The notes beneath the pieces are model-generated. The model saw only the letters and a list, made by a program, of their open reading frames with translations. It was not told the DNA's origin and made no database searches. Positions 2,919 to 40,874 of a DNA stretch of 64,000 bases are shown here, piece after piece (the first letter of the stretch is position 1; every line of letters starts with the position of its first letter). The position numbers and the translations under genes were made by a program. Origin of the DNA: a phage; sequence record OZ413489.1. One strand, given 5' to 3'.

Positions 2919-4475
2919 GTGTCCAAAAAGAACCGCAGGAAACACAACGCCACAGCCAAAACTGTGAATAAATCTGGGAACGCAGGCGCACCAACTCATA
3001 ATGTTCGTATGAGTGAGATCGGTTCTGGCGCACTTTCCCAAATTATGGCAGAATCGCAATCTATGATGGTTGAGGAATTGCGTTGGCCTCAGCTGATTGC
3101 CACAGTGGAGACTATGAAATGTGATTCCACAGTTGCTACTGCCTTAGATACAAAATATGTTTTCATCACGAAAGCATTCAATGATTTTAAGATCCTTTAT
3201 AATGTTAAAAGTGAAGACTCTAAGAAAGCTGCCGAGCTTATAGAGTATTCTTTGCGTAATTTGGCAAACCAACAAACTCTTCGAGATATTGCAAGAAGCG
3301 CAGCTACCTTTAACGAGTATGGTTTTTCACTGTTTGAGAAAGTATACCGCAGAGAGAAAGAAGGTAAATATGCCGGGATGCTTCTTATCGATAAAATTGC
3401 ATTCCGACCTCAGGCCAGCCTGTCCAGATCAGAGCCGTTTGTTTTTGATAAGAATAGCAGAACACTGACAGGTATTTATCAGTCACCTAATGCATTTCTA
3501 AACACTCAGAATGCACGCTGGGCTGGACCTCTTGCTGCAATGCCTTCAAAAAGCTTTAATGAGCCTGAAATTTTCATCCCTGCTAAAAAGCTTATGCTCA
3601 TGACCCTGTCAGGAACAGAATCTAACCCTGCAGGTGTGTCACCGATGATAGGTTGCTACAGATCTTTCCGTGAGAAAGTTCTGATTGAAAACCTTGAGGT
3701 TGTTGGCTGTTCCAAAGACCTTGGTGGTGTGCTTGAGCTGAAAATTCCTTCCAATATTTTGAACAAGGCCAGCATTGACCCGAATTCAATGGAAGGGAGA
3801 ATGGTTGCAGATCTTATGCTTGACGCAGCAAACGCCCATAGTGGTGAGCAAAGTTTCTTTATACTTCCGTCTGATAGAGATAAGTCTGGTAAAGAGCTTT
3901 ACTCCATGACCCTGAAGGGGGTTGACGGTATGGGTAAGCAGTATTCCACTAAAGATTTGATTGATGCCCGTAAGAAGGCGATTCTTGACCGTTTCGGTGC
4001 TGGCTTTATTAACCTCGGTAACGATAACGTTGGATCCTTCTCTCTGTCTGAGTCAAAACAGTCTATCCATGGTCATTTTGTTCAGCGTGATATAGATATT
4101 ATCACTGAAGCCTTCAATAAGGATCTTATTCCACAGCTTCTGGCATTGAATGGTATCATCCTTGAAGATGATGATATGCCTAAACTGAAACCTGGTCTGA
4201 TTGAAGAAGTGGATATGGAGAGCTTCTCCAAGTTTGTCCAGAGGATCGGTGCTGTAGGTTACTTGCCAAAAACTCCTGCAGTAATTAATAAGATTCTTGA
4301 AGTAGGCGGGTTTGATGAAAGATTTGACGAGGACATGGATCAGGAAGAGCTGATGAAGCTCTTGGGCCAGGACATCAGTAGAGCTGGTGATGGAATGGCT
4401 GCAGGATCCACTGGCAACGGCACTTCTAAGATATCATCAACCAGAGATAATTCCATATCCAACATGGAAAATTAA
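2919..4475 (+). CDS. portal protein
   Basis: 518 aa, GTG start with GAGGGG RBS; immediately after terminase; size and position typical of portal. Confidence 0.65.
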   Translation: MSKKNRRKHNATAKTVNKSGNAGAPTHNVRMSEIGSGALSQIMAESQSMMVEELRWPQLIATVETMKCDSTVATALDTKYVFITKAFNDFKILYNVKSEDSKKAAELIEYSLRNLANQQTLRDIARSAATFNEYGFSLFEKVYRREKEGKYAGMLLIDKIAFRPQASLSRSEPFVFDKNSRTLTGIYQSPNAFLNTQNARWAGPLAAMPSKSFNEPEIFIPAKKLMLMTLSGTESNPAGVSPMIGCYRSFREKVLIENLEVVGCSKDLGGVLELKIPSNILNKASIDPNSMEGRMVADLMLDAANAHSGEQSFFILPSDRDKSGKELYSMTLKGVDGMGKQYSTKDLIDARKKAILDRFGAGFINLGNDNVGSFSLSESKQSIHGHFVQRDIDIITEAFNKDLIPQLLALNGIILEDDDMPKLKPGLIEEVDMESFSKFVQRIGAVGYLPKTPAVINKILEVGGFDERFDEDMDQEELMKLLGQDISRAGDGMAAGSTGNGTSKISSTRDNSISNMEN

Positions 4476-9965: not shown

Positions 9966-10516
9966 TGGAAGCTTTCGAAAAAGTTTTTTCTGATCTTGAA
10001 ACAACCATTGCTAAGCTTGTCAAGGTTGCCACAGGAAGAACTGTAGTTTTGGCAGAAAGCTCTACCATACCGAAGCCGGAAGGTGAGTTTGTGCTTTTAC
10101 AAACCTTGGCGATCAATCCAACCACTTGGGAAGATAATGAGTTTCAAGACGCGGAGGGTAATGCCTACGTCACCCACAGTTACACTGTTACTTATCTGTT
10201 AACAGCTTATCGTGGCAGGGCATATGCTGCACTTAGCAGAGTATTGCAAGCAATAAACCTTCCGATGTTTTATGACAAGTATTTCCCTCTGGGATCGTGC
10301 TTTGCCTACTCTAACAATTCAACAATCTCACCTCAAAGAGTGCCGTTGAATAAGCAGACGTATGAAAATAGAGCCACTGTGATGCTGACATTTAACGTAA
10401 GGTTTGTTGAAACAGACATTGGGGCTTTTGAGGATCTTCAGGGAATTAAGGCTGAAATAACCACACACTTTCCTTCACCCAATTCTGGTAAAGCGGTTAC
10501 AGACAGTGGTCAGTAA
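9965..10516 (+). CDS. hypothetical head-tail joining region protein
   Basis: 183 aa; ATG overlaps upstream stop (TGATG). Confidence 0.4.
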   Translation: MEAFEKVFSDLETTIAKLVKVATGRTVVLAESSTIPKPEGEFVLLQTLAINPTTWEDNEFQDAEGNAYVTHSYTVTYLLTAYRGRAYAALSRVLQAINLPMFYDKYFPLGSCFAYSNNSTISPQRVPLNKQTYENRATVMLTFNVRFVETDIGAFEDLQGIKAEITTHFPSPNSGKAVTDSGQ

Positions 10517-10588
10517 TCGTTATAATTGTGTAGTGTAATGATTACACTGCGTGTTTGATATCCGTGCACAGATATTAAGAGGAAACAA

Positions 10589-11965
10589 ATGCCATATTTA
10601 GATAAAGTGGTAGATGTTACAGTTAACCTCGGAACCCAGCCTATTGACACTGTAGGTTTCGAAACTCCCCTGTTCATCGCTATCCACAACAACTTTACTG
10701 AGCGAGCTCGCGTATACGCTGAGCTGGATCAGATGGTGGAAGATGGTTTCGCACAAGGCTCTGCAGCGTATGAGTTTGCAGCAAAAGCTTTTGGTGGTGT
10801 ATTCCCTCCACAATACGTTATGATCGGCAGACAGGCCAAAGAAAAGACCACTGTAGATTTTAAAGGTATTGCTGCCGCAGCTGATACCGATGTCGTAATG
10901 ACTATTGCAAAAGGTAGCTACAATACTTCTTTGATAGTGCCTATCTCTGGTGGAACAGGTGCAACTCAGATTGCAGAGTCAATGAAGACTAAAATTGAAG
11001 CAGATGATAGCTTGAACGATATCACTGTAGAGGCTGCTGAAGGTGTTCTCACCATCACGGGTGATTGTACTGTTGGTTATCATACTGGCAACTATACAAT
11101 CAAAAATATCGCCAATGCTGAAAAACCTTCTACAGTAGTTGATAAGATCAATGCTGAGCGTGACAATTGGTACTTCCTGTGCCATGAAGACCACACCGAC
11201 ATTGAAGCATGTGCTAAGTGGGCTCAGGCTAACTACAAGCTGCATGTCTACTCTACTGCAGAAGATGTGACTGGTAAAGATAATAACATCGCCACCAAAC
11301 TGATGGCTGCACAATATGACAGTGTTGGCATGTACGATCCTCGTGCTGATAAAGATTTTCCAGAGGGTGGTATCGTAGGCGCTATGGCATCCAACGATCC
11401 GTCTTACGGTGACAGCTTGCACTTAAAACAGATGCCGGGTGTGATTGCACCATCTCTGACTTTAACTCAGCGTATGGCGATTTGGGAAAACCACGTTAAC
11501 TTCTACAGGATGATTAACGGTGTCGGTGCTTTCTGGGAAGGCAAGTGTGCTTCAGGTCAGTATGCAGACGCTATTCGTTTTGCACACTGGATCAAGTTCA
11601 GATCTGAAGAATCCATGTTTGGGTACATGCATCGTCGCTCCAATATGGGTTTAAGCATGAAGATGTCTGATGATGATCTTCCGGTTATCAAGTCTGTCCT
11701 GATGAACAACCCAATCAACACTGGCATTAAGAATGGTGCGATCCTGACAGGTTTCGACGAAGACAATAATGTATTCTACGACCCGATCATCACAGTTCCT
11801 AAACGTGCAGAAATCCCAACCAATCAGTTGGCTGCTCGTGTTCTGGAAGGTGTGAAAGTAGAACTGGTGTATAACAACGCCCTGCACTTCGTTCGTATCC
11901 GGATCAATGTCCTTCTGGACAAAGTTGGTTCTAAATCCACCAATGCTGTTGCAATGACTGAATAA
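10589..11965 (+). CDS. tail sheath protein (by gene order and size)
   Basis: 458 aa; AAGAGGA RBS; directly precedes a 157-aa tube-sized gene, the frameshifted chaperone and the tape measure. Confidence 0.5.
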   Translation: MPYLDKVVDVTVNLGTQPIDTVGFETPLFIAIHNNFTERARVYAELDQMVEDGFAQGSAAYEFAAKAFGGVFPPQYVMIGRQAKEKTTVDFKGIAAAADTDVVMTIAKGSYNTSLIVPISGGTGATQIAESMKTKIEADDSLNDITVEAAEGVLTITGDCTVGYHTGNYTIKNIANAEKPSTVVDKINAERDNWYFLCHEDHTDIEACAKWAQANYKLHVYSTAEDVTGKDNNIATKLMAAQYDSVGMYDPRADKDFPEGGIVGAMASNDPSYGDSLHLKQMPGVIAPSLTLTQRMAIWENHVNFYRMINGVGAFWEGKCASGQYADAIRFAHWIKFRSEESMFGYMHRRSNMGLSMKMSDDDLPVIKSVLMNNPINTGIKNGAILTGFDEDNNVFYDPIITVPKRAEIPTNQLAARVLEGVKVELVYNNALHFVRIRINVLLDKVGSKSTNAVAMTE

Positions 11966-11975
11966 GGAAGCCTAG

Positions 11976-12449
11976 ATGGAAACTCAAATTTTAACTCCTT
12001 ATGCGTATGACCCTAAAAAGGTCAAACTGTATCTGATGCAGCAGCGTGTCACTGGCTTCGCTGCTGACACCAAGATTGTTGTTTCAAGAAACGAAGACAA
12101 CATTTACCCTCACGTCGGTGTGGATGGTGAAATGTCTGCGGCTCTGTCTCGTAACCAATCTGGTGTTATGACCGTGTCTTTGCAGAACACTTCTGTATGG
12201 AACGCTTACCTTTCTGACTGGCAGAAACAGGCATCGATTACTGGTCTGGTATTCTTCCCAGTTCTGCTGGAAGGTAGCCAGGGTCCTGGTATTTCCACAA
12301 TTGGTTGGATCCAGAAACAGCCTGACCTGACTTACGGAACCGAAGTAGGTCAACTGGACTGGGATATCGGTATTCTGGATGCATGGCTCAACCGTGATAA
12401 CATCACTGGTGCTCTTACTGGCCTCGCAGGTCTTGCAGGTATTATCTAA
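11976..12449 (+). CDS. tail tube protein (by gene order and size)
   Basis: 157 aa; AAGGAAG RBS; followed by terminator, promoter and chaperone. Confidence 0.5.
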   Translation: METQILTPYAYDPKKVKLYLMQQRVTGFAADTKIVVSRNEDNIYPHVGVDGEMSAALSRNQSGVMTVSLQNTSVWNAYLSDWQKQASITGLVFFPVLLEGSQGPGISTIGWIQKQPDLTYGTEVGQLDWDIGILDAWLNRDNITGALTGLAGLAGII

Positions 12450-12467
12450 GGGCACACTTTAGCATAA

Positions 12468-12496
12468 GCCTCACCTTCGGGTGGGGCTTTTTGCTT
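12468..12496 (+). terminator. rho-independent terminator
   Basis: GCCTCACC-TTCG-GGTGGGGC then TTTTTGCTTTT. Confidence 0.7.
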
Positions 12497-12539
12497 TTAT
12501 GGTTTTGACACACGTTCTTGAATTGCTTGGAAGGTTAAA

Positions 12540-12568
12540 TTGACAATGCACCATAATCATGGTAAAAT
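12540..12568 (+). promoter_or_regulatory. sigma70-like promoter, TTGACA-17-TGgTAAAAT
   Basis: -35 12540-12545, -10 12563-12568 preceded by TGG. Confidence 0.5.
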
Positions 12569-12611
12569 ACACAAATATGGTGCACAACATGACTAATAAG
12601 GATGCTATAAA

Positions 12612-13085
12612 ATGGCTATAAACTTTAGACCTACAACAGAGATTGATTTAGCAGGGCACAACTTTGTGATCACCCACTGGGGACCGATGAAAGCAATGAA
12701 AAACATGCCTAAAATCGGTAAGATTGTGGCTGTCCCGCTAGGTGCTATCGGTGGATCTATTATCTCAGGCGGTCAGAACATGGCAGAGGTCCTTCCTACA
12801 GCTCTGGCTTACCTGTTCCAAGAACTTGATGATAACTCTATCGAAGAGTTATTTAAAATTTTGTTCGAAGATATTACCGTAGATGGTGTGGATAAGCTTA
12901 ACCCGGATGTTGTGTTTGCAGGGCATCTGCTGGAGATGATTAAGCTGGCAGGTAAGGTTCTGGAGGTTAACTACGGCTGTTTTTTCACACAAGACGGTTT
13001 AGGAAGCCTTCTGGAGATGTTACAGCAGATGGGTATGATTCAGCAGGTGAACAACCTGGATCAGACTCCGGAAGAGCAGGAATAA
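12612..13085 (+). CDS. tail assembly chaperone (G-like, frame 0 product)
   Basis: 157 aa between tube and tape measure genes; contains slippery heptamer. Confidence 0.5.
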   Translation: MAINFRPTTEIDLAGHNFVITHWGPMKAMKNMPKIGKIVAVPLGAIGGSIISGGQNMAEVLPTALAYLFQELDDNSIEELFKILFEDITVDGVDKLNPDVVFAGHLLEMIKLAGKVLEVNYGCFFTQDGLGSLLEMLQQMGMIQQVNNLDQTPEEQE

Positions 13086-13345
13086 GCAAGGTTGTTGTGA
13101 GGGCCAGTGAGTGGGCAGCCAAGAACAGTTCACTCAACTGGTTCGACTTTCTTTGGTGTAGAGTGCTCAAGAATTTCAAAGGGGAAAATTTTGAATCGCT
13201 AAATCTTGCAGATATGGCGTATTTCCTGAAGCTCTGTGAGTATCTTGATATCGAAGAATTCCTAGATACCGTCCAAAACAGGGAAATGGAGCGGGAGCAG
13301 AAGGCTGCCGCAGCTGCTGCGAAAGCTAAGCGCAGGAGAGGATAA
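12971..13345 (+). CDS. -1 frame extension of tail assembly chaperone (GT-like fusion by frameshift)
   Basis: -1 frame open 12971-13345 (track ORF 13097-13345 is its downstream part); predicted fusion about 244 aa. Confidence 0.4.
   Translation, partial: LRLFFHTRRFRKPSGDVTADGYDSAGEQPGSDSGRAGISKVVVRASEWAAKNSSLNWFDFLWCRVLKNFKGENFESLNLADMAYFLKLCEYLDIEEFLDTVQNREMEREQKAAAAAAKAKRRRG
12980..12986 (+). promoter_or_regulatory. candidate -1 ribosomal frameshift slippery site T TTT TTC
   Basis: X XXY YYZ heptamer in frame 0 (codons TGT TTT TTC); -1 frame is open from 12971 to 13345. Confidence 0.45.
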
Positions 13346-13350
13346 TCTAA

Positions 13351-13388
13351 GGGCCGGATTCCTTTTCTGGGATCTGGCCCTTTTTATT
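13351..13388 (+). terminator. rho-independent terminator
   Basis: 12-bp stem GGGCCGGATTCC/GGGATCTGGCCC then TTTTTATT. Confidence 0.7.
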
Positions 13389-13399
13389 ATGAGGAAACC

Positions 13400-15736
13400 A
13401 TGGCTACAAACAAAATAGTTGCCACAACAGTCAACAAGATTGGCTTTGAGATAGAGAACTCCTCCTACAAAAAAGCTGTAGAGAAAATTCGCAGTATTGG
13501 GAGGGAGTTCAGGAAACTGGGCGAGGATTTTAACTCAGCCAACCCCATGAGTAGATGGCAGGCGGTAGCTGTTAAAACCCAGCAGACAATGCAGCGGGTT
13601 GCCAGACAGCAATCTCAGGCAAATGCTAAACTGCACAGAGAGAGCGTAGCACAGGCCAAGAAAGAGGCTGCAGTAAGGGCTGCAATAGAACGTAGGGAGA
13701 ATGCGAGACGTAAACAAGCTGTAGGTAATCTTACCGCTAAAAATCCAGAAATGGCTAGGATGCGTAAGTTCTACCAGCAGCAAGCTAAAGAGGCCAAAAA
13801 GGCTGCCAAATCTGCACCAGTGTCTTACGGTGGTTATAAGGCACCTAAGGCAAGAGTTTTGGCTAATGCCAAATCTTTCAAATATATCCCAGGTAACCCT
13901 AATATGGGTGGTGTGGCTTCCGACCCTAACCTTGTGAAAGCTCAGACAGCCGCTATGAATCGTTATCATAGACAGCTAAGAAGAGACAGTAAAGCTGGTA
14001 TGGATAATAGGCTTATGTCGGATCGTGAGGCAAGGAGAACCCACCTCTACAACTCCGCGATAAGACTTTCTGCCAAGTATGGGGCCGGATTCCGTGGAAG
14101 CTTGCCAGGATACTCAGAGTTAGAGTCCAGGTTTGCTCGCGGGGAGATGAAGAAGTCAACCTTTAACGCCCACCTGTCAGCGCTGCAGTCTGGGTTTAAA
14201 AGCGCCACCAGCCAAACGCTTACACTAGGCGATGCCATGAGAGACTTACGTAGATCTGTTATTAATGCAACAGCTGCGTATACAGCTTTTTCTGGATTTG
14301 CTGCGGTTAACAGATCCGGTCACATGATGGAGGGGGCAAGTGCTGCTCTTACTGCTGTCACTGGAGATCCAAACAAAGCCAACAGTGAGGTTGCGTTTGT
14401 CCAGCAAGAGGCTATGCGTCTTGGTTTTGATCTCAAATCTGGTCTTCAAGGTTACGCCCAGATGTCGGTAAACGCCAAAAACCAGATGACAAATCAGGAA
14501 GTGCATGAGCTGTTTTCTGCATACTCCCAGTATGCTGCTGCTTATGGTGCCGATGAGGTAAAATACCAGCGCGGTATTATGGCTATCCAACAGATGCTTG
14601 GCAAGGGACAAGTAATGTCCGAAGAACTGAAGCAACAACTTGCTGAAGCATTGCCTGGTGCATACGAACCTTTTATCAAGGCCACCAAAGAGGCTTTTGG
14701 TCTTTCTGAACTCTCCATGGATCAGTTCATGGACATGATGAAGAAAGGTGAGGTTAAAACAGCCAAGATCATGAAGTATGTGGCTAAGTACATGAACGAG
14801 GCATCTGCAGCTGGTTATGAAAGAATGCAGAAGTCTAACGTGCTGGCAGAAAACAGACTGAAAACCTTCATCGAACTGACTCGTCAGAAACTGTTCACCC
14901 GTTGGTCTGACGAACTAACAGAGTTCTATTATACACTAATCCGCACTGGTGAGACTCTGCAATTTGTGTGGGATGCCTCTGGTGATTTTGTTAGCGGGTT
15001 TGTGAGAGGCCTTAACTGGGTAGTTGGTGAACTAAACAACACTATAGTCAAGATCCGCATGTTTTTCCTTGAATGGGGGATTAAATGGGGATTCATAACA
15101 GCTAAGACGAAGGAATATTCTGAAGAGCTTCATGACACCTTTAGCTATGCTAAATGGGCAGGGTTTGCTGCTGCCATCATGCTGGTAGTCAACGCCCTAA
15201 CAAAAGGTTTTGTCATGGCATCCATGCTTGTAAAAACCTTTAAATTCCTTAACTCTCTAAGGGGTGCAGCTGGAGCAGCGGGTGCCGCTACTACAGAAGG
15301 ATCTGGTGGTGGAGCTCCGGCAGGAAAAGGTGGGGGTGGCCTCAAGACACCTGGTGGCAAAGTTGGTCTGCTCGGTAAGCTGGGCATTATCGGTACAATA
15401 CTAAGCGCCGGGGAATTATTTAATGACCGTTACAACCCACTAAGTGAAAGAAATCAGCAGCTAGGTACTATCAGCGATATGATTCGCAAAGATATCATAT
15501 CGGGAGGTAACGGGTTTGTTAATCCTTTGGACACCTTACCTGGCGGGACTCTTCCGTTGCCGGGTGGCCCTGGTTTTGCTTCTCAATTAAGAACTATGGA
15601 AATGCTACCTTTAGAGATCAGTGATGGGAAAATCACGATTTCAATAGATGAGGGTGAGTTTAACAAAATATTTGATGCAAAACTTGAGTGGGAGAACAAT
15701 AAAGATATCAACTTCATGTCTACCGACCTTTGGTAA
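13400..15736 (+). CDS. tail tape measure protein
   Basis: 778 aa; helical Ala/Gln/Lys-rich N-terminal part, Gly-rich tract GAAGAAGAATTEGSGGGAPAGKGGGG; after chaperone pair. Confidence 0.65.
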   Translation: MATNKIVATTVNKIGFEIENSSYKKAVEKIRSIGREFRKLGEDFNSANPMSRWQAVAVKTQQTMQRVARQQSQANAKLHRESVAQAKKEAAVRAAIERRENARRKQAVGNLTAKNPEMARMRKFYQQQAKEAKKAAKSAPVSYGGYKAPKARVLANAKSFKYIPGNPNMGGVASDPNLVKAQTAAMNRYHRQLRRDSKAGMDNRLMSDREARRTHLYNSAIRLSAKYGAGFRGSLPGYSELESRFARGEMKKSTFNAHLSALQSGFKSATSQTLTLGDAMRDLRRSVINATAAYTAFSGFAAVNRSGHMMEGASAALTAVTGDPNKANSEVAFVQQEAMRLGFDLKSGLQGYAQMSVNAKNQMTNQEVHELFSAYSQYAAAYGADEVKYQRGIMAIQQMLGKGQVMSEELKQQLAEALPGAYEPFIKATKEAFGLSELSMDQFMDMMKKGEVKTAKIMKYVAKYMNEASAAGYERMQKSNVLAENRLKTFIELTRQKLFTRWSDELTEFYYTLIRTGETLQFVWDASGDFVSGFVRGLNWVVGELNNTIVKIRMFFLEWGIKWGFITAKTKEYSEELHDTFSYAKWAGFAAAIMLVVNALTKGFVMASMLVKTFKFLNSLRGAAGAAGAATTEGSGGGAPAGKGGGGLKTPGGKVGLLGKLGIIGTILSAGELFNDRYNPLSERNQQLGTISDMIRKDIISGGNGFVNPLDTLPGGTLPLPGGPGFASQLRTMEMLPLEISDGKITISIDEGEFNKIFDAKLEWENNKDINFMSTDLW

Positions 15737-15748
15737 TAAACTGTGCAA

Positions 15749-15773
15749 GGGGGCTCCGGCCCCCTTTATTTTA
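15749..15773 (+). terminator. rho-independent terminator
   Basis: GGGGGC-TCCG-GCCCCC then TTTATTTTA. Confidence 0.7.
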
Positions 15774-15779
15774 TCGGTG

Positions 15780-15808
15780 TTGTAAAAACGGCTATTTTAT
15801 GATACAAT
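15780..15808 (+). promoter_or_regulatory. sigma70-like promoter, TTGTAA-17-TGaTACAAT
   Basis: -35 15780-15785, -10 15803-15808 preceded by TGA. Confidence 0.45.
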
Positions 15809-15841
15809 ATCTAGATGGTATCGGAGTGTCCTGGAGAGGTT

Positions 15842-16726
15842 ATGCCAAGCAATATAGTTGATGAAAAAGACCTGTACAAGCCTCAAGAGGTTAAATCTCC
15901 AAAGGCTGAAAAGGCAGAGCAGCAAACTGAAAGCGATGTAAAGTACACTATGTTTGTCAGCGGTCTTAACTATGGCGGTCGCAATACGGAGATGAAGGGT
16001 AAAAACTTTACTAACGATCTTGCCATTATCTTCGATCAGGTTGAGAATTACTCTTTCAAACATTCTGTTGATAAGACTGGGTTTGCGGTGGAAGATAAAT
16101 CTACCCTGTCAGACCACGCCGTAATTAAAGATGGTGTATTTTCTTTTACTGGTAGGGTAAATACATCCCCACACATAATCTATGAGCAAAACTACATTGA
16201 TAGGAATACTGACTCTAAAAACCCTGCAGCATCTATGCGACCAGGCGCTGCATTGGAGGCTTTGACTGAGATTATCAATAAGCGACAGTTGGTTTCTTTG
16301 GTTACCGAGGAGAGACTTCTTGAGAACTACATCATAACCAGTCTTTCTGCCAACAAGTCTGTTGGTGAAGGCGCTGCAATGGTGTTTGATGTAGAACTTA
16401 CAGAGTTCCGCACATTCTACTTGAATAAGGTTGTTAATGCAACTGTATACAGCAATCCTAAGAAAGTAGGCAAGACCCAACAAAAAGGCGCTGTCAACGA
16501 CTGTAAGAATGGTAGTAACGTAGGTAACAAGAGGGACACAGGAGCATTCGCAGACACTGCATCCACAAACGCTGCAGAGGAGTGGCAGCCATACAAATCT
16601 ATGATGTGGACAGATGAAAACGGTGTTACCCAATCGGCTGCGGATTGGTATTATCAGGAATATGGAAGACCTTCTACCATAGTCCCATCTGAGCAGGGAA
16701 ACTACAACAAAGTTAACGGGAAATAA
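15842..16726 (+). CDS. tail or baseplate-associated protein (unknown)
   Basis: Track ORF 15815-16726; ATG 15842 with GGAGAGG RBS preferred (294 aa); first gene after tape measure. Confidence 0.4.
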   Translation: MPSNIVDEKDLYKPQEVKSPKAEKAEQQTESDVKYTMFVSGLNYGGRNTEMKGKNFTNDLAIIFDQVENYSFKHSVDKTGFAVEDKSTLSDHAVIKDGVFSFTGRVNTSPHIIYEQNYIDRNTDSKNPAASMRPGAALEALTEIINKRQLVSLVTEERLLENYIITSLSANKSVGEGAAMVFDVELTEFRTFYLNKVVNATVYSNPKKVGKTQQKGAVNDCKNGSNVGNKRDTGAFADTASTNAAEEWQPYKSMMWTDENGVTQSAADWYYQEYGRPSTIVPSEQGNYNKVNGK

Positions 16727-39552: not shown

Positions 39553-40596
39553 ATGACTAAACCAGTTATCCCTCTTGATATTTGGGCCAATCAGGATGTT
39601 GTGCTTGAAAATACGGGAGAGTTGAATAAATCTCAACCAAAAAAAGAAGAGAGATTGAAAGGTTGGGATATGACACAAAGAGTGGCATGTGAAGTTGTTA
39701 ACTTTGAACTCCACATGCTTTCTGCGTGGTTAAAGCATTTAACAGAAGATGTTGTCCCAGGATGGGATAATAGATTCTTAAGGGTCACTAATAATCTAGC
39801 AGACGTTCCAGACAAAGCTGCTGCACGTCAAGTTCTCAATGTATACTCGCCTGAAGAAATGGACGATCTGTATGTTGACAAGTCTGGAGACATAATGACT
39901 CAGACTCAAACTTTAGGCCTTCAAAGAATCGAGTTTGCATCTGCGTCAACAGACAATGCGGCAATATATACCACCATAACTCCAGACAAGACGACGATGG
40001 ATTTCTGGATTATGGACAACATCGGTGGTGCTGACGGCACAGACCTTGATGATCCTTCTCACCAAATAGACGGGTTCCGTTGGAGATTTCAACCTTCTGG
40101 TGGGCAGCCTGTGTTTTCGGCTATGAAGCTCAATGCTATAACTGCCAACCGTGCAAGACTGGCCATCCAAGGAAATCTTGAATGCAACGATGCAAAAAGT
40201 TCCTCTGCAAATGCCAATGCGGTCACGATACCAAGAGCCACTGTTAACGGACAACAATCCTGCGGAATCGCTCAAATAGGTGGAAGAGTTGATTGTAACG
40301 ATGAAACAGTCAGGGGTCAATATGCAACAGTTGGTGGAAGAAACGTGGTCCGCAGGGTAAATGGTAACGGCGCAGACAGTAGTGGTAACCTTACTATCCC
40401 TATGCCCAGCAGAGGGGTTGATGATGTAAGGATAGCAAACCGTTTCAAAACCACCTACAGAGAGTCAAGAGTCTACCCTGGACATGTGATGTGCTCTGGT
40501 AACTACGCTTATAAACACCCTTATCAAGGTGATTACTGGACAGGTGCTATCCAAAAACTTGTAAATGGTCAATGGATCACTATATCTTATGCTTAA
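39553..40596 (+). CDS. tail fibre protein (P2 H-like C-terminus), copy 2
   Basis: Track ORF 39550; ATG 39553 with AGGAGA RBS; 347 aa; diverged paralogue of 37498-38538 with shared FRWRFQP and ...QKLVNGQWITISYA. Confidence 0.55.
   Translation: MTKPVIPLDIWANQDVVLENTGELNKSQPKKEERLKGWDMTQRVACEVVNFELHMLSAWLKHLTEDVVPGWDNRFLRVTNNLADVPDKAAARQVLNVYSPEEMDDLYVDKSGDIMTQTQTLGLQRIEFASASTDNAAIYTTITPDKTTMDFWIMDNIGGADGTDLDDPSHQIDGFRWRFQPSGGQPVFSAMKLNAITANRARLAIQGNLECNDAKSSSANANAVTIPRATVNGQQSCGIAQIGGRVDCNDETVRGQYATVGGRNVVRRVNGNGADSSGNLTIPMPSRGVDDVRIANRFKTTYRESRVYPGHVMCSGNYAYKHPYQGDYWTGAIQKLVNGQWITISYA
40552..40581 (+). repeat. 30-nt conserved segment at fibre 3' end (copy 2)
   Basis: CAAAAACTTGTAAATGGTCAATGGATCACT. 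Confidence 0.6.
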
Positions 40597-40607
40597 AAAG
40601 AGGGTAA

Positions 40608-40874
40608 ATGAAACTAACTCAGTTTTTATGGGGACTGGTTGCGGCATCTGATGACCCTACGAAAGTGTCCCAAACTAAGCTATGGTCGAACATAGGCATG
40701 GCGGTGATGACTGGGGTGTTTATTCATATGGGGTATAATGATACGCTTCCTGAATGGTATGCGTGGATATACGCGCCTTCAGTAGCTTGCCCCCAGCTTA
40801 TTAGCAAATTCATCTCGCTCCGGTGGGGTTGCCAGCACCCTGACCACGTTAAAAACGAAGAGCAAAAAGCTTAA
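40608..40874 (+). CDS. small membrane protein
   Basis: 88 aa; AGAGGG RBS; hydrophobic segments IGMAVMTGVFIHMGY and WYAWIYAPSVA. Confidence 0.3.
   Translation: MKLTQFLWGLVAASDDPTKVSQTKLWSNIGMAVMTGVFIHMGYNDTLPEWYAWIYAPSVACPQLISKFISLRWGCQHPDHVKNEEQKA

What the first reader, a model, noticed from the sequence alone, without database searches (positions are those of the whole stretch)
12971..13345. Programmed -1 frameshift site in tail assembly chaperone gene
The chaperone ORF contains the slippery heptamer T TTT TTC (12980-12986) in the correct X XXY YYZ phase. The -1 frame is open from 12971 to 13345, 260 nt past the frame-0 stop, predicting a longer fusion product (about 244 aa) alongside the 157-aa protein. 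This is the conserved G/GT-type arrangement between tail tube and tape measure genes.
Basis: partly seen in the sequence, partly recalled or inferred. Interest (0 to 1): 0.45.

Follow-up and report, generated by a model that had tools for sequence, protein, structure and literature searches.

The report
Tail chaperone -1 frameshift site
This is very probably a genuine example of the well-known ribosomal frameshift that lets tailed phages make a short and a long tail-assembly chaperone from one gene; it sits in an rV5-like coliphage where the database records I inspected do not annotate it, so the call is correct but ordinary.

Summary
The 157-aa ORF 12612-13085 is a Pfam Phage_TAC_15 tail assembly chaperone. 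T TTT TTC (12980-12986) is in X XXY YYZ phase, and the -1 frame is open from 12971 to 13345, predicting a 244-aa fusion. The gene lies between the sheath and tube genes and the tape measure gene of an rV5-like Vequintavirus (99.9% identical to phage APECc02).

Comparative evidence strongly supports a programmed -1 ribosomal frameshift. In all 50 loci examined (34 distinct chaperones, 8 clusters sharing under 60% identity):
- the -1 frame runs 224-296 nt past the stop, while the +1 frame closes within 61 nt;
- an in-phase slippery heptamer lies in the overlap, at the end of the chaperone domain;
- the codon before Phe-Phe changes amino acid (Cys, Ser, Pro) but keeps its wobble T.

The extension is under purifying selection only in the -1 frame (pN/pS 0.29). 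In several lineages it has no start codon ahead of its conserved domain.

I found no conserved downstream RNA structure. The upstream GGAGG is not consistently conserved.

The same frameshift was recently proposed for sister clades (Vandenendeviridae, Andersonviridae), at what looks like the same site. This is a new member of a known kind. No experiment confirms it.

The parts
10589..11965 (+). Tail sheath gene (458 aa); context only
   Evidence: phrog_205 tail sheath, E = 7e-118; Pfam DUF3383. Annotated as tail sheath in NC_041869.
11976..12449 (+). Tail tube gene (157 aa); context only
   Evidence: Pfam PF11681 KPP10_Orf10, E = 7e-9; phrog_280. Annotated as tail tube protein in several relatives.
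12466..12499 (+). Terminator-like hairpin plus T run, just after the tube gene
   Evidence: Consensus scan: 10-pair stem with 6 GC pairs, followed by TTTGCTTTTA.
12540..12568 (+). Near-consensus sigma-70 promoter-like site upstream of the chaperone gene
   Evidence: TTGACA-17-TAAAAT with an extended -10 TG, 11 of 12 matches. The equivalent site is annotated as promoter P51 in rV5, NC_011041.
12612..13085 (+). Chaperone ORF G (frame 0, 157 aa), the short and presumably major product
   Evidence: Pfam Phage_TAC_15, E = 2.3e-23, covering residues 15-129; phrog_3840, E = 5e-69. The G-specific tail after the shift site is under purifying selection in the G frame (pN/pS 0.49).
12962..12966 (+). GGAGG, a Shine-Dalgarno-like pentamer 13 nt upstream of the heptamer; a candidate stimulator, not established
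   Evidence: Read from the sequence. A GGAGG or GAGG is present in only about half of the related clusters, and it coincides with the conserved Leu-Glu-Val codons. GAG makes up 50% of Glu codons in this window, so there is no significant enrichment.
12980..12986 (+). Slippery heptamer T TTT TTC in X XXY YYZ phase; the proposed -1 shift site
   Evidence: TTTTTTC is present in phase in 48 of 50 loci. The other two carry C CCT TTT and G GGA AAG. The preceding codon varies (TGT, TCT, AGT, CCT) but always ends in T.
12986..13345 (+). The -1 frame segment (T part): 119 codons plus a TAA stop. Residues 1-35 form a variable Pro/Ser/Gly-rich linker and the rest is a conserved helical domain.
   Evidence: Translation. 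phrog_10409, E = 2e-51. pN/pS is 0.29 in this frame against 1.2-1.4 in the other two. The AlphaFold2 single-sequence model is low confidence: disordered over residues 1-35, then four helices.
13097..13345 (+). The 82-aa ORF starting at GTG, annotated as a separate hypothetical protein in APECc02 RefSeq; judged here to be part of the GT extension
   Evidence: It has only a 4-nt SD-like AGGT or AAGG upstream. The start is not conserved even in the closest diverged relative, and in several lineages no start codon precedes the conserved domain.
13349..13392 (+). Terminator-like hairpin plus T run, between the end of the -1 frame and the tape measure gene
   Evidence: 14-pair stem with 8 GC pairs, then TTTATTATGA. 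The equivalent site is annotated as a Rho-independent terminator in rV5.
13400..15736 (+). Tape measure protein gene (778 aa); context only
   Evidence: Pfam TMP_3, E = 1.5e-18; phrog_5255, E = 0.

Best explanation

**Proposed mechanism.**
- Most ribosomes read frame 0 to the stop at 13083-13085 and make the 157-aa chaperone G.
- A minority slip while tRNA-Phe occupies both the P site (UUU) and the A site (UUC) on U UUU UUC. Both tRNAs slip back one base and re-pair with UUU UUU.
- Translation then continues in the -1 frame to 13345, giving a 244-aa GT protein.
- GT consists of the chaperone domain (residues 1-125), a variable linker of about 35 residues, and a conserved helical domain of about 85 residues.

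**Likely function.** By analogy with lambda gpG/gpGT, both products would coat the tape measure protein. The T domain of the rare long form would recruit the tube protein so that the tail polymerises to the correct length. Neither product ends up in the virion.

**Shown here:** the sequence anatomy, its conservation, and selection on the -1 frame.

**Inferred:** that slippage is ribosomal, how efficient it is, and what the two products bind.
For: **Anatomy is exact**.

**Gene identity and position.** The ORF is Pfam Phage_TAC_15, and the gene order is sheath, tube, chaperone, tape measure.

**Conservation across 50 loci** (34 distinct G proteins, 8 clusters under 60% identity, reaching about 28% identity to the window):
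- The -1 frame always extends 224-296 nt past the G stop. The +1 frame extends only 7-61 nt.
- An in-phase slippery heptamer always lies in the overlap, 54-102 nt before the stop. It is TTTTTTC in 48 loci, C CCT TTT in 1 and G GGA AAG in 1.
- The residue before Phe-Phe varies (Cys TGT, Ser TCT, Ser AGT, Pro CCT) but its third base is always T. The first Phe codon is always TTT. This points to selection on the nucleotides rather than on the amino acids.

**The extension is coding in the -1 frame.** Beyond the G stop, pN/pS is 0.29 in the -1 frame and 1.22 and 1.41 in the other two frames.

**Independent initiation is not available in several lineages.** There is no ATG, GTG or TTG before the conserved T domain in L005 and L040. 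The first candidate start lies after the conserved KNSSLxWYDYL motif in L007, L008, L028 and L036. Candidate starts that precede the domain rarely have a Shine-Dalgarno match: only two weak 4-nt matches in 21 loci, one of them the window's own GTG 13097.

**The heptamer fits E. coli shiftiness rules.** UUN codons, all-pyrimidine ZZN codons and homogeneous X/Z are the more shift-prone classes (PMC4066793 section 17).

**Published precedent in sister clades.** The same -1 frameshift with a conserved GTTTTT motif at the end of the chaperone gene was proposed for Vandenendeviridae and Andersonviridae (PMC12846349). It was annotated in phage Moogle (PMC4319497). In phiPsa397 (genus Otagovirus, which that paper places in Vandenendeviridae) the site appears to match by sequence motif: NYGSVF against NYGCFF here. 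The -1 frame begins with the same RFR(R/K)P motif.
Against: - **No experimental evidence.** I found no mass spectrometry, reporter assay or ribosome profiling for this phage group. The rV5 genome and proteome paper does not mention a frameshift or a chaperone.
- **No stimulatory RNA structure.** The downstream 100 nt folds no better than shuffled sequence (z = -1.3, and the hairpin starts 19 nt after the heptamer). RNAalifold on 19 diverse sequences predicts no pairs. Rfam has no hit.
- **The upstream GGAGG is not consistently conserved**.
- **The shift site is far from the stop.** It lies 96 nt upstream of the G stop, much further than the 26-nt average reported for SEA-PHAGES chaperone frameshift annotations.
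- **An alternative start exists in this genome.** The GTG at 13097 has a weak SD-like AGGT or AAGG, so some independent initiation cannot be excluded.
- **The overlap adds little.** Between the heptamer and the G stop the -1 frame shows no purifying selection of its own (pN/pS 1.5). Support therefore comes from the region beyond the stop.
Confidence: 0.9

Rival explanations
1. There are two separate genes. The -1 frame ORF is translated on its own from the GTG at 13097 (82 aa), as RefSeq annotates for APECc02, or from a CTG at 12977, as annotated for rV5 ORF 50. On this view the heptamer is incidental.
For: - GenBank and RefSeq records annotate it this way.
- A 4-nt SD-like AGGT or AAGG lies 4-5 nt upstream of GTG 13097.
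- None of the 16 annotated records I inspected carries a joined CDS.
- No database protein covers more than 62% of the predicted fusion.
Against: - The start is not conserved. The nearest diverged relative (L018) has TTG with no SD at that position.
- L005 and L040 have no start codon at all before or within the first part of the conserved domain.
- In L007, L008, L028 and L036 the first start falls after the conserved motif.
- Annotated start positions differ arbitrarily between records and cut into the conserved domain.
- A chance heptamer would not be kept in 50 of 50 loci, with an invariant wobble T across Cys, Ser and Pro codons.
- rV5's CTG start at 12977 sits 3 nt upstream of the heptamer and partly overlaps it. 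It looks like an annotator's way of capturing the open frame.
Confidence: 0.05
2. The long product arises by transcriptional slippage. RNA polymerase stutters on the run of six T residues and adds an extra U to a fraction of the mRNAs. Normal translation of those mRNAs then yields GT.
For: - The site is a homopolymeric T6 run.
- Transcriptional slippage on T or A runs is a known way to reach the -1 frame (review PMC5009743).
- No ribosomal stimulator structure was found.
Against: - Relatives keep the arrangement with heptamers that lack a long run: G GGA AAG in Barbavirus and C CCT TTT in KLEP7. These fit tandem tRNA slippage, not polymerase stuttering.
- From general knowledge, efficient bacterial transcriptional slippage usually needs runs of about 8-9 or more.
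- The strict X XXY YYZ phasing of the motif in all 50 loci is needed only for a ribosomal mechanism.
Confidence: 0.04
3. It is coincidence: an in-phase heptamer happens to sit in a region where the neighbouring ORF overlaps, and it has no function.
For: In this window alone the chance of a heptamer falling in the 35-codon overlap is about 9%. In addition, 23 of 98 long ORFs have -1 frame extensions of at least 200 nt, simply because the next gene lies in that frame.
Against: Conservation in 50 of 50 loci across 8 deeply diverged clusters, selection at the nucleotide level on the heptamer, and the absence of independent starts.
Confidence: 0.01

Closest known systems
Lambda gpG/gpGT tail assembly chaperone frameshift, and the conserved G/GT arrangement of long-tailed dsDNA phages (Levin 1993; Xu, Hendrix and Duda 2004, 2013, 2014, as summarised in PMC5009743)
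   Same: - The position is between the tail tube gene and the tape measure gene.
- Two overlapping ORFs, with the second in the -1 frame and lacking a reliable start of its own.
- A canonical X XXY YYZ heptamer in the overlap.
- The short product is presumably the abundant one.
- No strong downstream RNA structure is evident.
   Different: - The chaperone belongs to a different sequence family: Pfam Phage_TAC_15. The T part has no Pfam match.
- The heptamer is U UUU UUC rather than G GGA AAG.
- The shift site is 32 codons before the G stop, not a few codons. G therefore has its own selected 32-residue C-terminal tail that GT lacks.
- The host phage is a contractile-tailed myovirus of about 135 kb.
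Proposed -1 frameshift in the chaperone (TAC-N/TAC-NC) locus of Vandenendeviridae (Pakpunavirus Adele) and Andersonviridae, with a conserved GTTTTT motif (PMC12846349, 2025). [quoted passage not shown]
   Same: - The virion module is related: the tube protein here matches the Pfam KPP10 family, and tblastn with it reaches Otagovirus.
- The shift site appears to match by sequence motif, at the end of the chaperone domain: NYG-x-(F/V)-F. A T run follows a G or C.
- The -1 frame starts with RFR(K/R)P.
- The downstream ORF is likewise routinely annotated as a hypothetical protein.
   Different: - The passages of that paper I read describe frameshift alignments only for Vandenendeviridae and Andersonviridae. 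Its passages naming Vequintavirinae or Stephanstirmvirinae concern phylogeny, synteny and tail fibres.
- In phiPsa397 the motif is G GTT TTT, effectively a U_UUU tetramer. Here it is a full tandem-slippage heptamer.
P2 E/E+E' and Mu tail chaperone frameshifts in myoviruses (recalled from Xu et al. 2004 and Christie et al. 2002; not checked with tools here)
   Same: Contractile-tailed phages with a -1 frameshift in a chaperone gene between the tube and tape measure genes. As I recall, P2 uses a T-rich heptamer.
   Different: No detectable sequence relationship was tested or found here. This comparison rests on recalled knowledge only.

Membership tests
G/GT-type programmed -1 frameshift of phage tail assembly chaperones | The gene lies immediately upstream of the tape measure gene and downstream of the major tail or tube gene | tested here: met
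   The order is sheath 10589-11965, tube 11976-12449, G 12612-13085, T to 13345, tape measure 13400-15736.
G/GT-type programmed -1 frameshift of phage tail assembly chaperones | A second ORF overlaps the 3' end of the first in the -1 frame and extends well past its stop | tested here: met
   The -1 frame is open 12971-13345, with 112 nt of overlap and a 260-nt extension. The extension is 224-296 nt in all 50 loci, against 7-61 nt for the +1 frame.
G/GT-type programmed -1 frameshift of phage tail assembly chaperones | A slippery sequence in the correct phase within the overlap, conserved among relatives | tested here: met
   T TTT TTC at 12980-12986. An in-phase heptamer is present in 50 of 50 loci, and the wobble T of the preceding codon is invariant across Cys, Ser and Pro codons.
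G/GT-type programmed -1 frameshift of phage tail assembly chaperones | The downstream ORF lacks its own conserved translation start | tested here: met
   Several lineages have no start codon before the conserved T domain. Candidate starts upstream of the domain rarely have an SD match: two weak 4-nt matches in 21 loci. In this window only a weak GTG with AGGT is available.
G/GT-type programmed -1 frameshift of phage tail assembly chaperones | The downstream segment is protein-coding in the -1 frame | tested here: met
   pN/pS is 0.29 in the -1 frame against 1.22 and 1.41 in the other frames. phrog_10409, E = 2e-51. A conserved domain appears in the alignment.
G/GT-type programmed -1 frameshift of phage tail assembly chaperones | Both a short and a frameshifted long protein are made, in a fixed ratio with the short form in large excess | not testable with these tools
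   This needs mass spectrometry, western blotting or a reporter assay. No published data were found for rV5-like phages.
G/GT-type programmed -1 frameshift of phage tail assembly chaperones | G binds the tape measure protein and the T domain binds the tube protein; neither is in the virion | not testable with these tools
   Inferred from lambda (PMC5009743). The single-sequence structure model of the T part was too poor (pLDDT 53) for any fold comparison.
Pfam PF21822 Phage_TAC_15 | The sequence scores above the curated gathering threshold | tested here: met
   83.6 bits against a cut-off of 22, E = 2.3e-23. Residues 15-129 match model positions 2-125 of 127. The domain ends at the shift site.
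Frameshift stimulated by downstream RNA structure or by an upstream Shine-Dalgarno-like element (dnaX or IS911 type) | A stable or conserved hairpin or pseudoknot 5-9 nt downstream, and/or a conserved SD-like element 10-14 nt upstream | tested here: not met
   - Downstream: z = -1.3 for 100 nt and +0.23 for 54 nt; RNAalifold predicts 0 pairs in 19 sequences; no Rfam hit.
- Upstream: GGAGG is present 13 nt upstream in the window but absent from about half of the clusters, and the codon choice is not significantly biased.

The most novel reading that the evidence does not exclude
The frameshift may act as a switch between two alternative C-terminal modules rather than as a simple extension. It occurs 18-34 codons before the G stop, exactly at the end of the chaperone domain. 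G therefore carries its own selected, acidic and Gln-rich tail of about 32 residues (pN/pS 0.49), and GT replaces that tail with a linker plus the T domain.

The G/GT pair also appears to sit in its own small transcription unit in this phage, with a near-consensus sigma-70 promoter and flanking terminator-like hairpins. That arrangement could set chaperone dosage independently of the tube and tape measure genes.
Probability: 0.4. Interest if true: 0.3.

Novelty: new member of a known kind. Interest (0 to 1): 0.2.

Why it matters
**Annotation.** All 14 Vequintavirinae, Stephanstirmvirinae and related records I inspected list the downstream segment as a separate hypothetical protein, when they annotate it at all. 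Their start codons are arbitrary: GTG, ATG, TTG and, in rV5, CTG. Recognising the frameshift would give a correct 244-aa GT product and remove a spurious gene. These phages are widely isolated for therapy and biocontrol.

**Evolution.** The result extends a recently proposed conserved shift site (NYG-x-F-F, T run, then RFRxP in the -1 frame) from Vandenendeviridae and Andersonviridae to Vequintavirinae, Stephanstirmvirinae, Barbavirus and Plateaulakevirus. That implies the site is ancient in this whole myovirus lineage.

**Limits.** It does not open a new question. The mechanism and role are the textbook lambda G/GT case.

Tried and rejected
- **Downstream stimulatory RNA structure.** I folded 54 nt and 100 nt after the heptamer in the window, folded 11 relatives, and ran RNAalifold on 19 sequences. 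Nothing was more stable than shuffled sequence in the window, and no conserved pairs were found. Only phiA009 has a notable hairpin (z = -2.2).
- **Rfam.** A scan of 12400-13450 at E <= 1 gave no hits.
- **Upstream SD-like GGAGG as a conserved stimulator.** Rejected as unproven. It is absent from Certrevirus, the Klebsiella group, KLEP7 and phiA009. It coincides with the Leu-Glu-Val codons, and GAG is already 50% of Glu codons.
- **Naturally fused or annotated GT proteins.** I searched 5.8 billion proteins with the 244-aa fusion. All 73 hits are 149-159 aa and cover at most 62% of the query.
- **Solved structures.** A sequence search with the fusion gave no hit at E <= 1.
- **Structure prediction.** The T part alone gave pLDDT 53, so I made no fold search.
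- **Literature.** Searches for a frameshift in rV5, Vequintavirus, PVP-SE1, phAPEC8 or phi92 found nothing specific.
- **Second shift site.** An in-phase U_UUC tetramer within the conserved GGTTTC, 12 nt downstream, exists in many relatives. In this window it is U_UUA, which the published rules class as less shift-prone, and it is absent in phiPsa397. The heptamer therefore remains the best candidate.
- **Heptamer efficiency.** I looked for a specific measured value for U_UUU_UUC in Sharma et al. 2014. Only the general rules were retrievable, because the values are in a figure.

Full report
**1. Where the window comes from**

The region 10500-16000 is 99.9% identical to Escherichia phage APECc02. 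It is 98-99% identical to rV5 and more than 100 other Vequintavirus genomes. The local gene order is:
- tail sheath, 10589-11965;
- tail tube, 11976-12449;
- the 157-aa ORF in question, 12612-13085;
- a short ORF;
- the tape measure gene, 13400-15736.

**2. Checking the observation**

The sequence reads ...AAC TAC GGC TGT TTT TTC ACA... in the frame of the 157-aa ORF. T TTT TTC at 12980-12986 is therefore in X XXY YYZ phase.

- The -1 frame is open from 12971 to the TAA ending at 13345. That is a 112-nt overlap and 260 nt beyond the frame-0 stop.
- The +1 frame closes after 25 nt.
- Slipping at the heptamer gives 125 + 119 = 244 aa.

Within this single window the evidence is only suggestive. 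In-phase heptamers occur at 0.0026 per codon, which gives about a 9% chance of one in the overlap. Many ORFs also have long -1 extensions simply because the next gene uses that frame.

**3. What the proteins are**

The 157-aa ORF is a tail assembly chaperone. It matches Pfam PF21822 Phage_TAC_15 at E = 2.3e-23 and phrog_3840 at E = 5e-69.

The Pfam match covers residues 15-129 and essentially the whole model. The chaperone domain therefore ends at the shift site, residue 125.

The downstream -1 ORF matches only PHROGs of unknown function (phrog_10409, 8811, 16039) and has no Pfam family.

**4. How the databases annotate it**

- APECc02 RefSeq lists an independent 82-aa hypothetical protein starting at GTG 13097.
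- rV5 lists ORF 50 starting at a CTG (window 12977) that lies 3 nt upstream of the heptamer and partly overlaps it.
- Twelve more distant relatives list short hypothetical ORFs with inconsistent starts, or nothing at all.
- None of these 14 records, nor two more distant ones (phiPsa397 and Vibrio PWH3a-P1), contains a joined CDS.
- A search of 5.8 billion proteins with the 244-aa fusion returned only chaperones of 149-159 aa, covering at most 62% of the query.

**5. Comparative test**

I collected 12 diverged GenBank relatives with 28-55% chaperone identity. They come from Seunavirus, Avunavirus, Certrevirus, Phapecoctavirus and other Stephanstirmvirinae, Plateaulakevirus, Barbavirus and others. 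I added 35 IMG/VR loci, giving 50 loci with the window, APECc02 and rV5. These contain 34 distinct chaperones in 8 clusters below 60% identity.

In every locus:
- the -1 frame runs 224-296 nt past the G stop, while the +1 frame runs only 7-61 nt;
- an in-phase slippery heptamer lies in the overlap, 54-102 nt before the stop.

The heptamer is TTTTTTC in 48 loci, C CCT TTT in Pseudaeromonas phage KLEP7, and G GGA AAG (the lambda heptamer) in Rheinheimera Barbavirus.

The heptamer sits at the same alignment position in nearly all loci, the conserved NYG-x-F-F that ends the chaperone domain. In Barbavirus it lies a few codons downstream.

The residue before Phe-Phe varies: Cys TGT, Ser TCT, Ser AGT, Pro CCT. 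Its third base is always T, and the first Phe codon is always TTT, although TTT and TTC are used about equally in this genome. That pattern indicates selection on the RNA sequence, not on the protein.

**6. Is the extension coding, and can it be made independently?**

Beyond the G stop, pooled pairwise comparisons within four groups gave:

| Frame | pN/pS |
|---|---|
| -1 frame | 0.29 |
| Other frame 1 | 1.22 |
| Other frame 2 | 1.41 |

Synonymous sites in the -1 frame are near saturation.

Between the heptamer and the G stop, the G frame is the constrained one (0.49) and the -1 frame is not (1.5). This fits the alignment, in which the first 35 or so residues of the T part form a variable Pro/Ser/Gly-rich linker after a short conserved RFR motif. 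A conserved domain of about 85 residues follows (...KNSSLxWFDYLW...LDIEEF...).

In L005 and L040 there is no ATG, GTG or TTG before or within the first part of that domain. In L007, L008, L028 and L036 the first candidate falls after the conserved motif. Candidate starts that precede the domain rarely carry a Shine-Dalgarno match: two weak 4-nt matches in 21 loci. One of them is this window's GTG 13097, preceded by a 4-nt AGGT or AAGG.

Independent initiation therefore cannot explain why the domain is conserved.

**7. Stimulatory signals**

- **Downstream structure.** The 100 nt after the heptamer fold no better than shuffles (z = -1.3; the hairpin starts 19 nt downstream). The first 54 nt give z = +0.23. 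Eleven relatives show no consistent hairpin. RNAalifold predicts no pairs for 19 sequences, and Rfam finds nothing.
- **Upstream element.** A GGAGG lies 13 nt upstream (12962-12966). From recalled knowledge of dnaX (Larsen et al. 1994, not retrieved here), that spacing is suitable for an SD-like stimulator. However, it coincides with the conserved Leu-Glu-Val codons, it is missing from about half of the clusters, and GAG is already 50% of Glu codons. I treat it as a candidate only.
- **The heptamer itself.** It fits the rules measured in E. coli. UUN codons, all-pyrimidine A-site codons and homogeneous X/Z motifs are the more shift-prone classes (PMC4066793).

**8. Rival explanations**

- **Separate genes.** Contradicted by section 6 and by the conservation of the heptamer.
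- **Transcriptional slippage on the T6 run.** This cannot be excluded for this genome. It fits poorly with relatives that use G GGA AAG or C CCT TTT, and with the strict codon phasing of the motif in all 50 loci.
- **Chance.** Excluded by the comparative data.

**9. Comparison with what is known**

The arrangement is the classical lambda G/GT frameshift. There the two products are needed at about 30:1, both bind the tape measure protein, and the T domain recruits the tube protein. The arrangement is conserved in most long-tailed phages (PMC5009743).

A 2025 paper argued, from 56 alleles, for exactly this kind of -1 frameshift in Vandenendeviridae. It described a conserved GTTTTT motif and found the same motif in 231 Andersonviridae genomes (PMC12846349). 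Phage Moogle was annotated with a chaperone frameshift in 2015 (PMC4319497).

That paper names Vequintavirinae and Stephanstirmvirinae as related clades. In the passages I read, the frameshift analysis covers only Vandenendeviridae and Andersonviridae.

The tube protein here reaches Otagovirus by tblastn. In phiPsa397 the chaperone ends ...EFNYGSVFQ... with ggtttttc at a position that appears to match by sequence motif. Its -1 frame begins ...RFRRP..., which matches ...RFRKP... here.

The window's site is thus a further member of a lineage-wide conserved frameshift.

Differences from lambda:
- a different chaperone family;
- a U-run heptamer;
- a shift site 32 codons before the stop, so that G has its own selected tail.

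**10. Verdict**

It is ordinary biology, a new member of a known kind. Its value is mostly for annotation. Direct protein-level evidence is lacking. Section 'decisive next steps' gives the experiments.

Noticed in passing
window 12466-12499, 12540-12568 and 13349-13392: The chaperone G/GT pair looks like its own small transcription unit. A terminator-like hairpin follows the tube gene, then a near-consensus sigma-70 promoter (TTGACA-17-TAAAAT with TG). A second strong terminator-like hairpin lies between the end of the -1 frame and the tape measure start. rV5's record annotates the promoter (P51) and the second terminator.
   Followed up: partly
L002 (rV5, NC_011041) locus 2978-3346, equivalent to window 12977-13345: rV5 ORF 50 is annotated with a CTG start that lies 3 nt upstream of the slippery heptamer and partly overlaps it. 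The annotators captured the whole open -1 frame without calling a frameshift.
   Followed up: yes
GenBank MG065639-MG065672: About 20 records named 'Campylobacter phage', with host Campylobacter jejuni, are 98-100% identical to rV5-like or phi92-like coliphage sequence in this region. They carry no annotation. They may be mislabelled or contaminant genomes.
   Followed up: no
L012 (Rheinheimera phage Barba16S) 1820-2458: In Barbavirus a reverse-strand gene, annotated as a putative DNA-binding protein, is inserted between the end of the T segment and the tape measure gene. This breaks the usual G-T-tape measure contiguity. This lineage also uses the lambda-type G GGA AAG heptamer.
   Followed up: no
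L003-L010 and others, 9-15 nt after the heptamer (window 12996-13001): A conserved GGTTTC or GGTTTA block follows the heptamer. It encodes Gly-Phe or Gly-Leu in frame 0 and Arg-Phe-Arg in frame -1. In many relatives it forms an in-phase U_UUC tetramer that could be a secondary shift site. In the window it is U_UUA.
   Followed up: partly
L009 (Pseudaeromonas phage KLEP7) 1033-1653: The annotated chaperone is 206 aa, with an N-terminal extension of about 50 residues that is absent from all relatives. The start codon is probably mis-called. No ORF is annotated for the T segment in this record.
   Followed up: no
window minus strand, ORF at reverse-complement coordinates 40255-40614: This is the only other ORF of at least 100 aa in the window with both a -1 extension of at least 200 nt and in-phase heptamers (TTTAAAT, AAATTTT) in the overlap. 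I did not check whether the ORF is a real gene.
   Followed up: no
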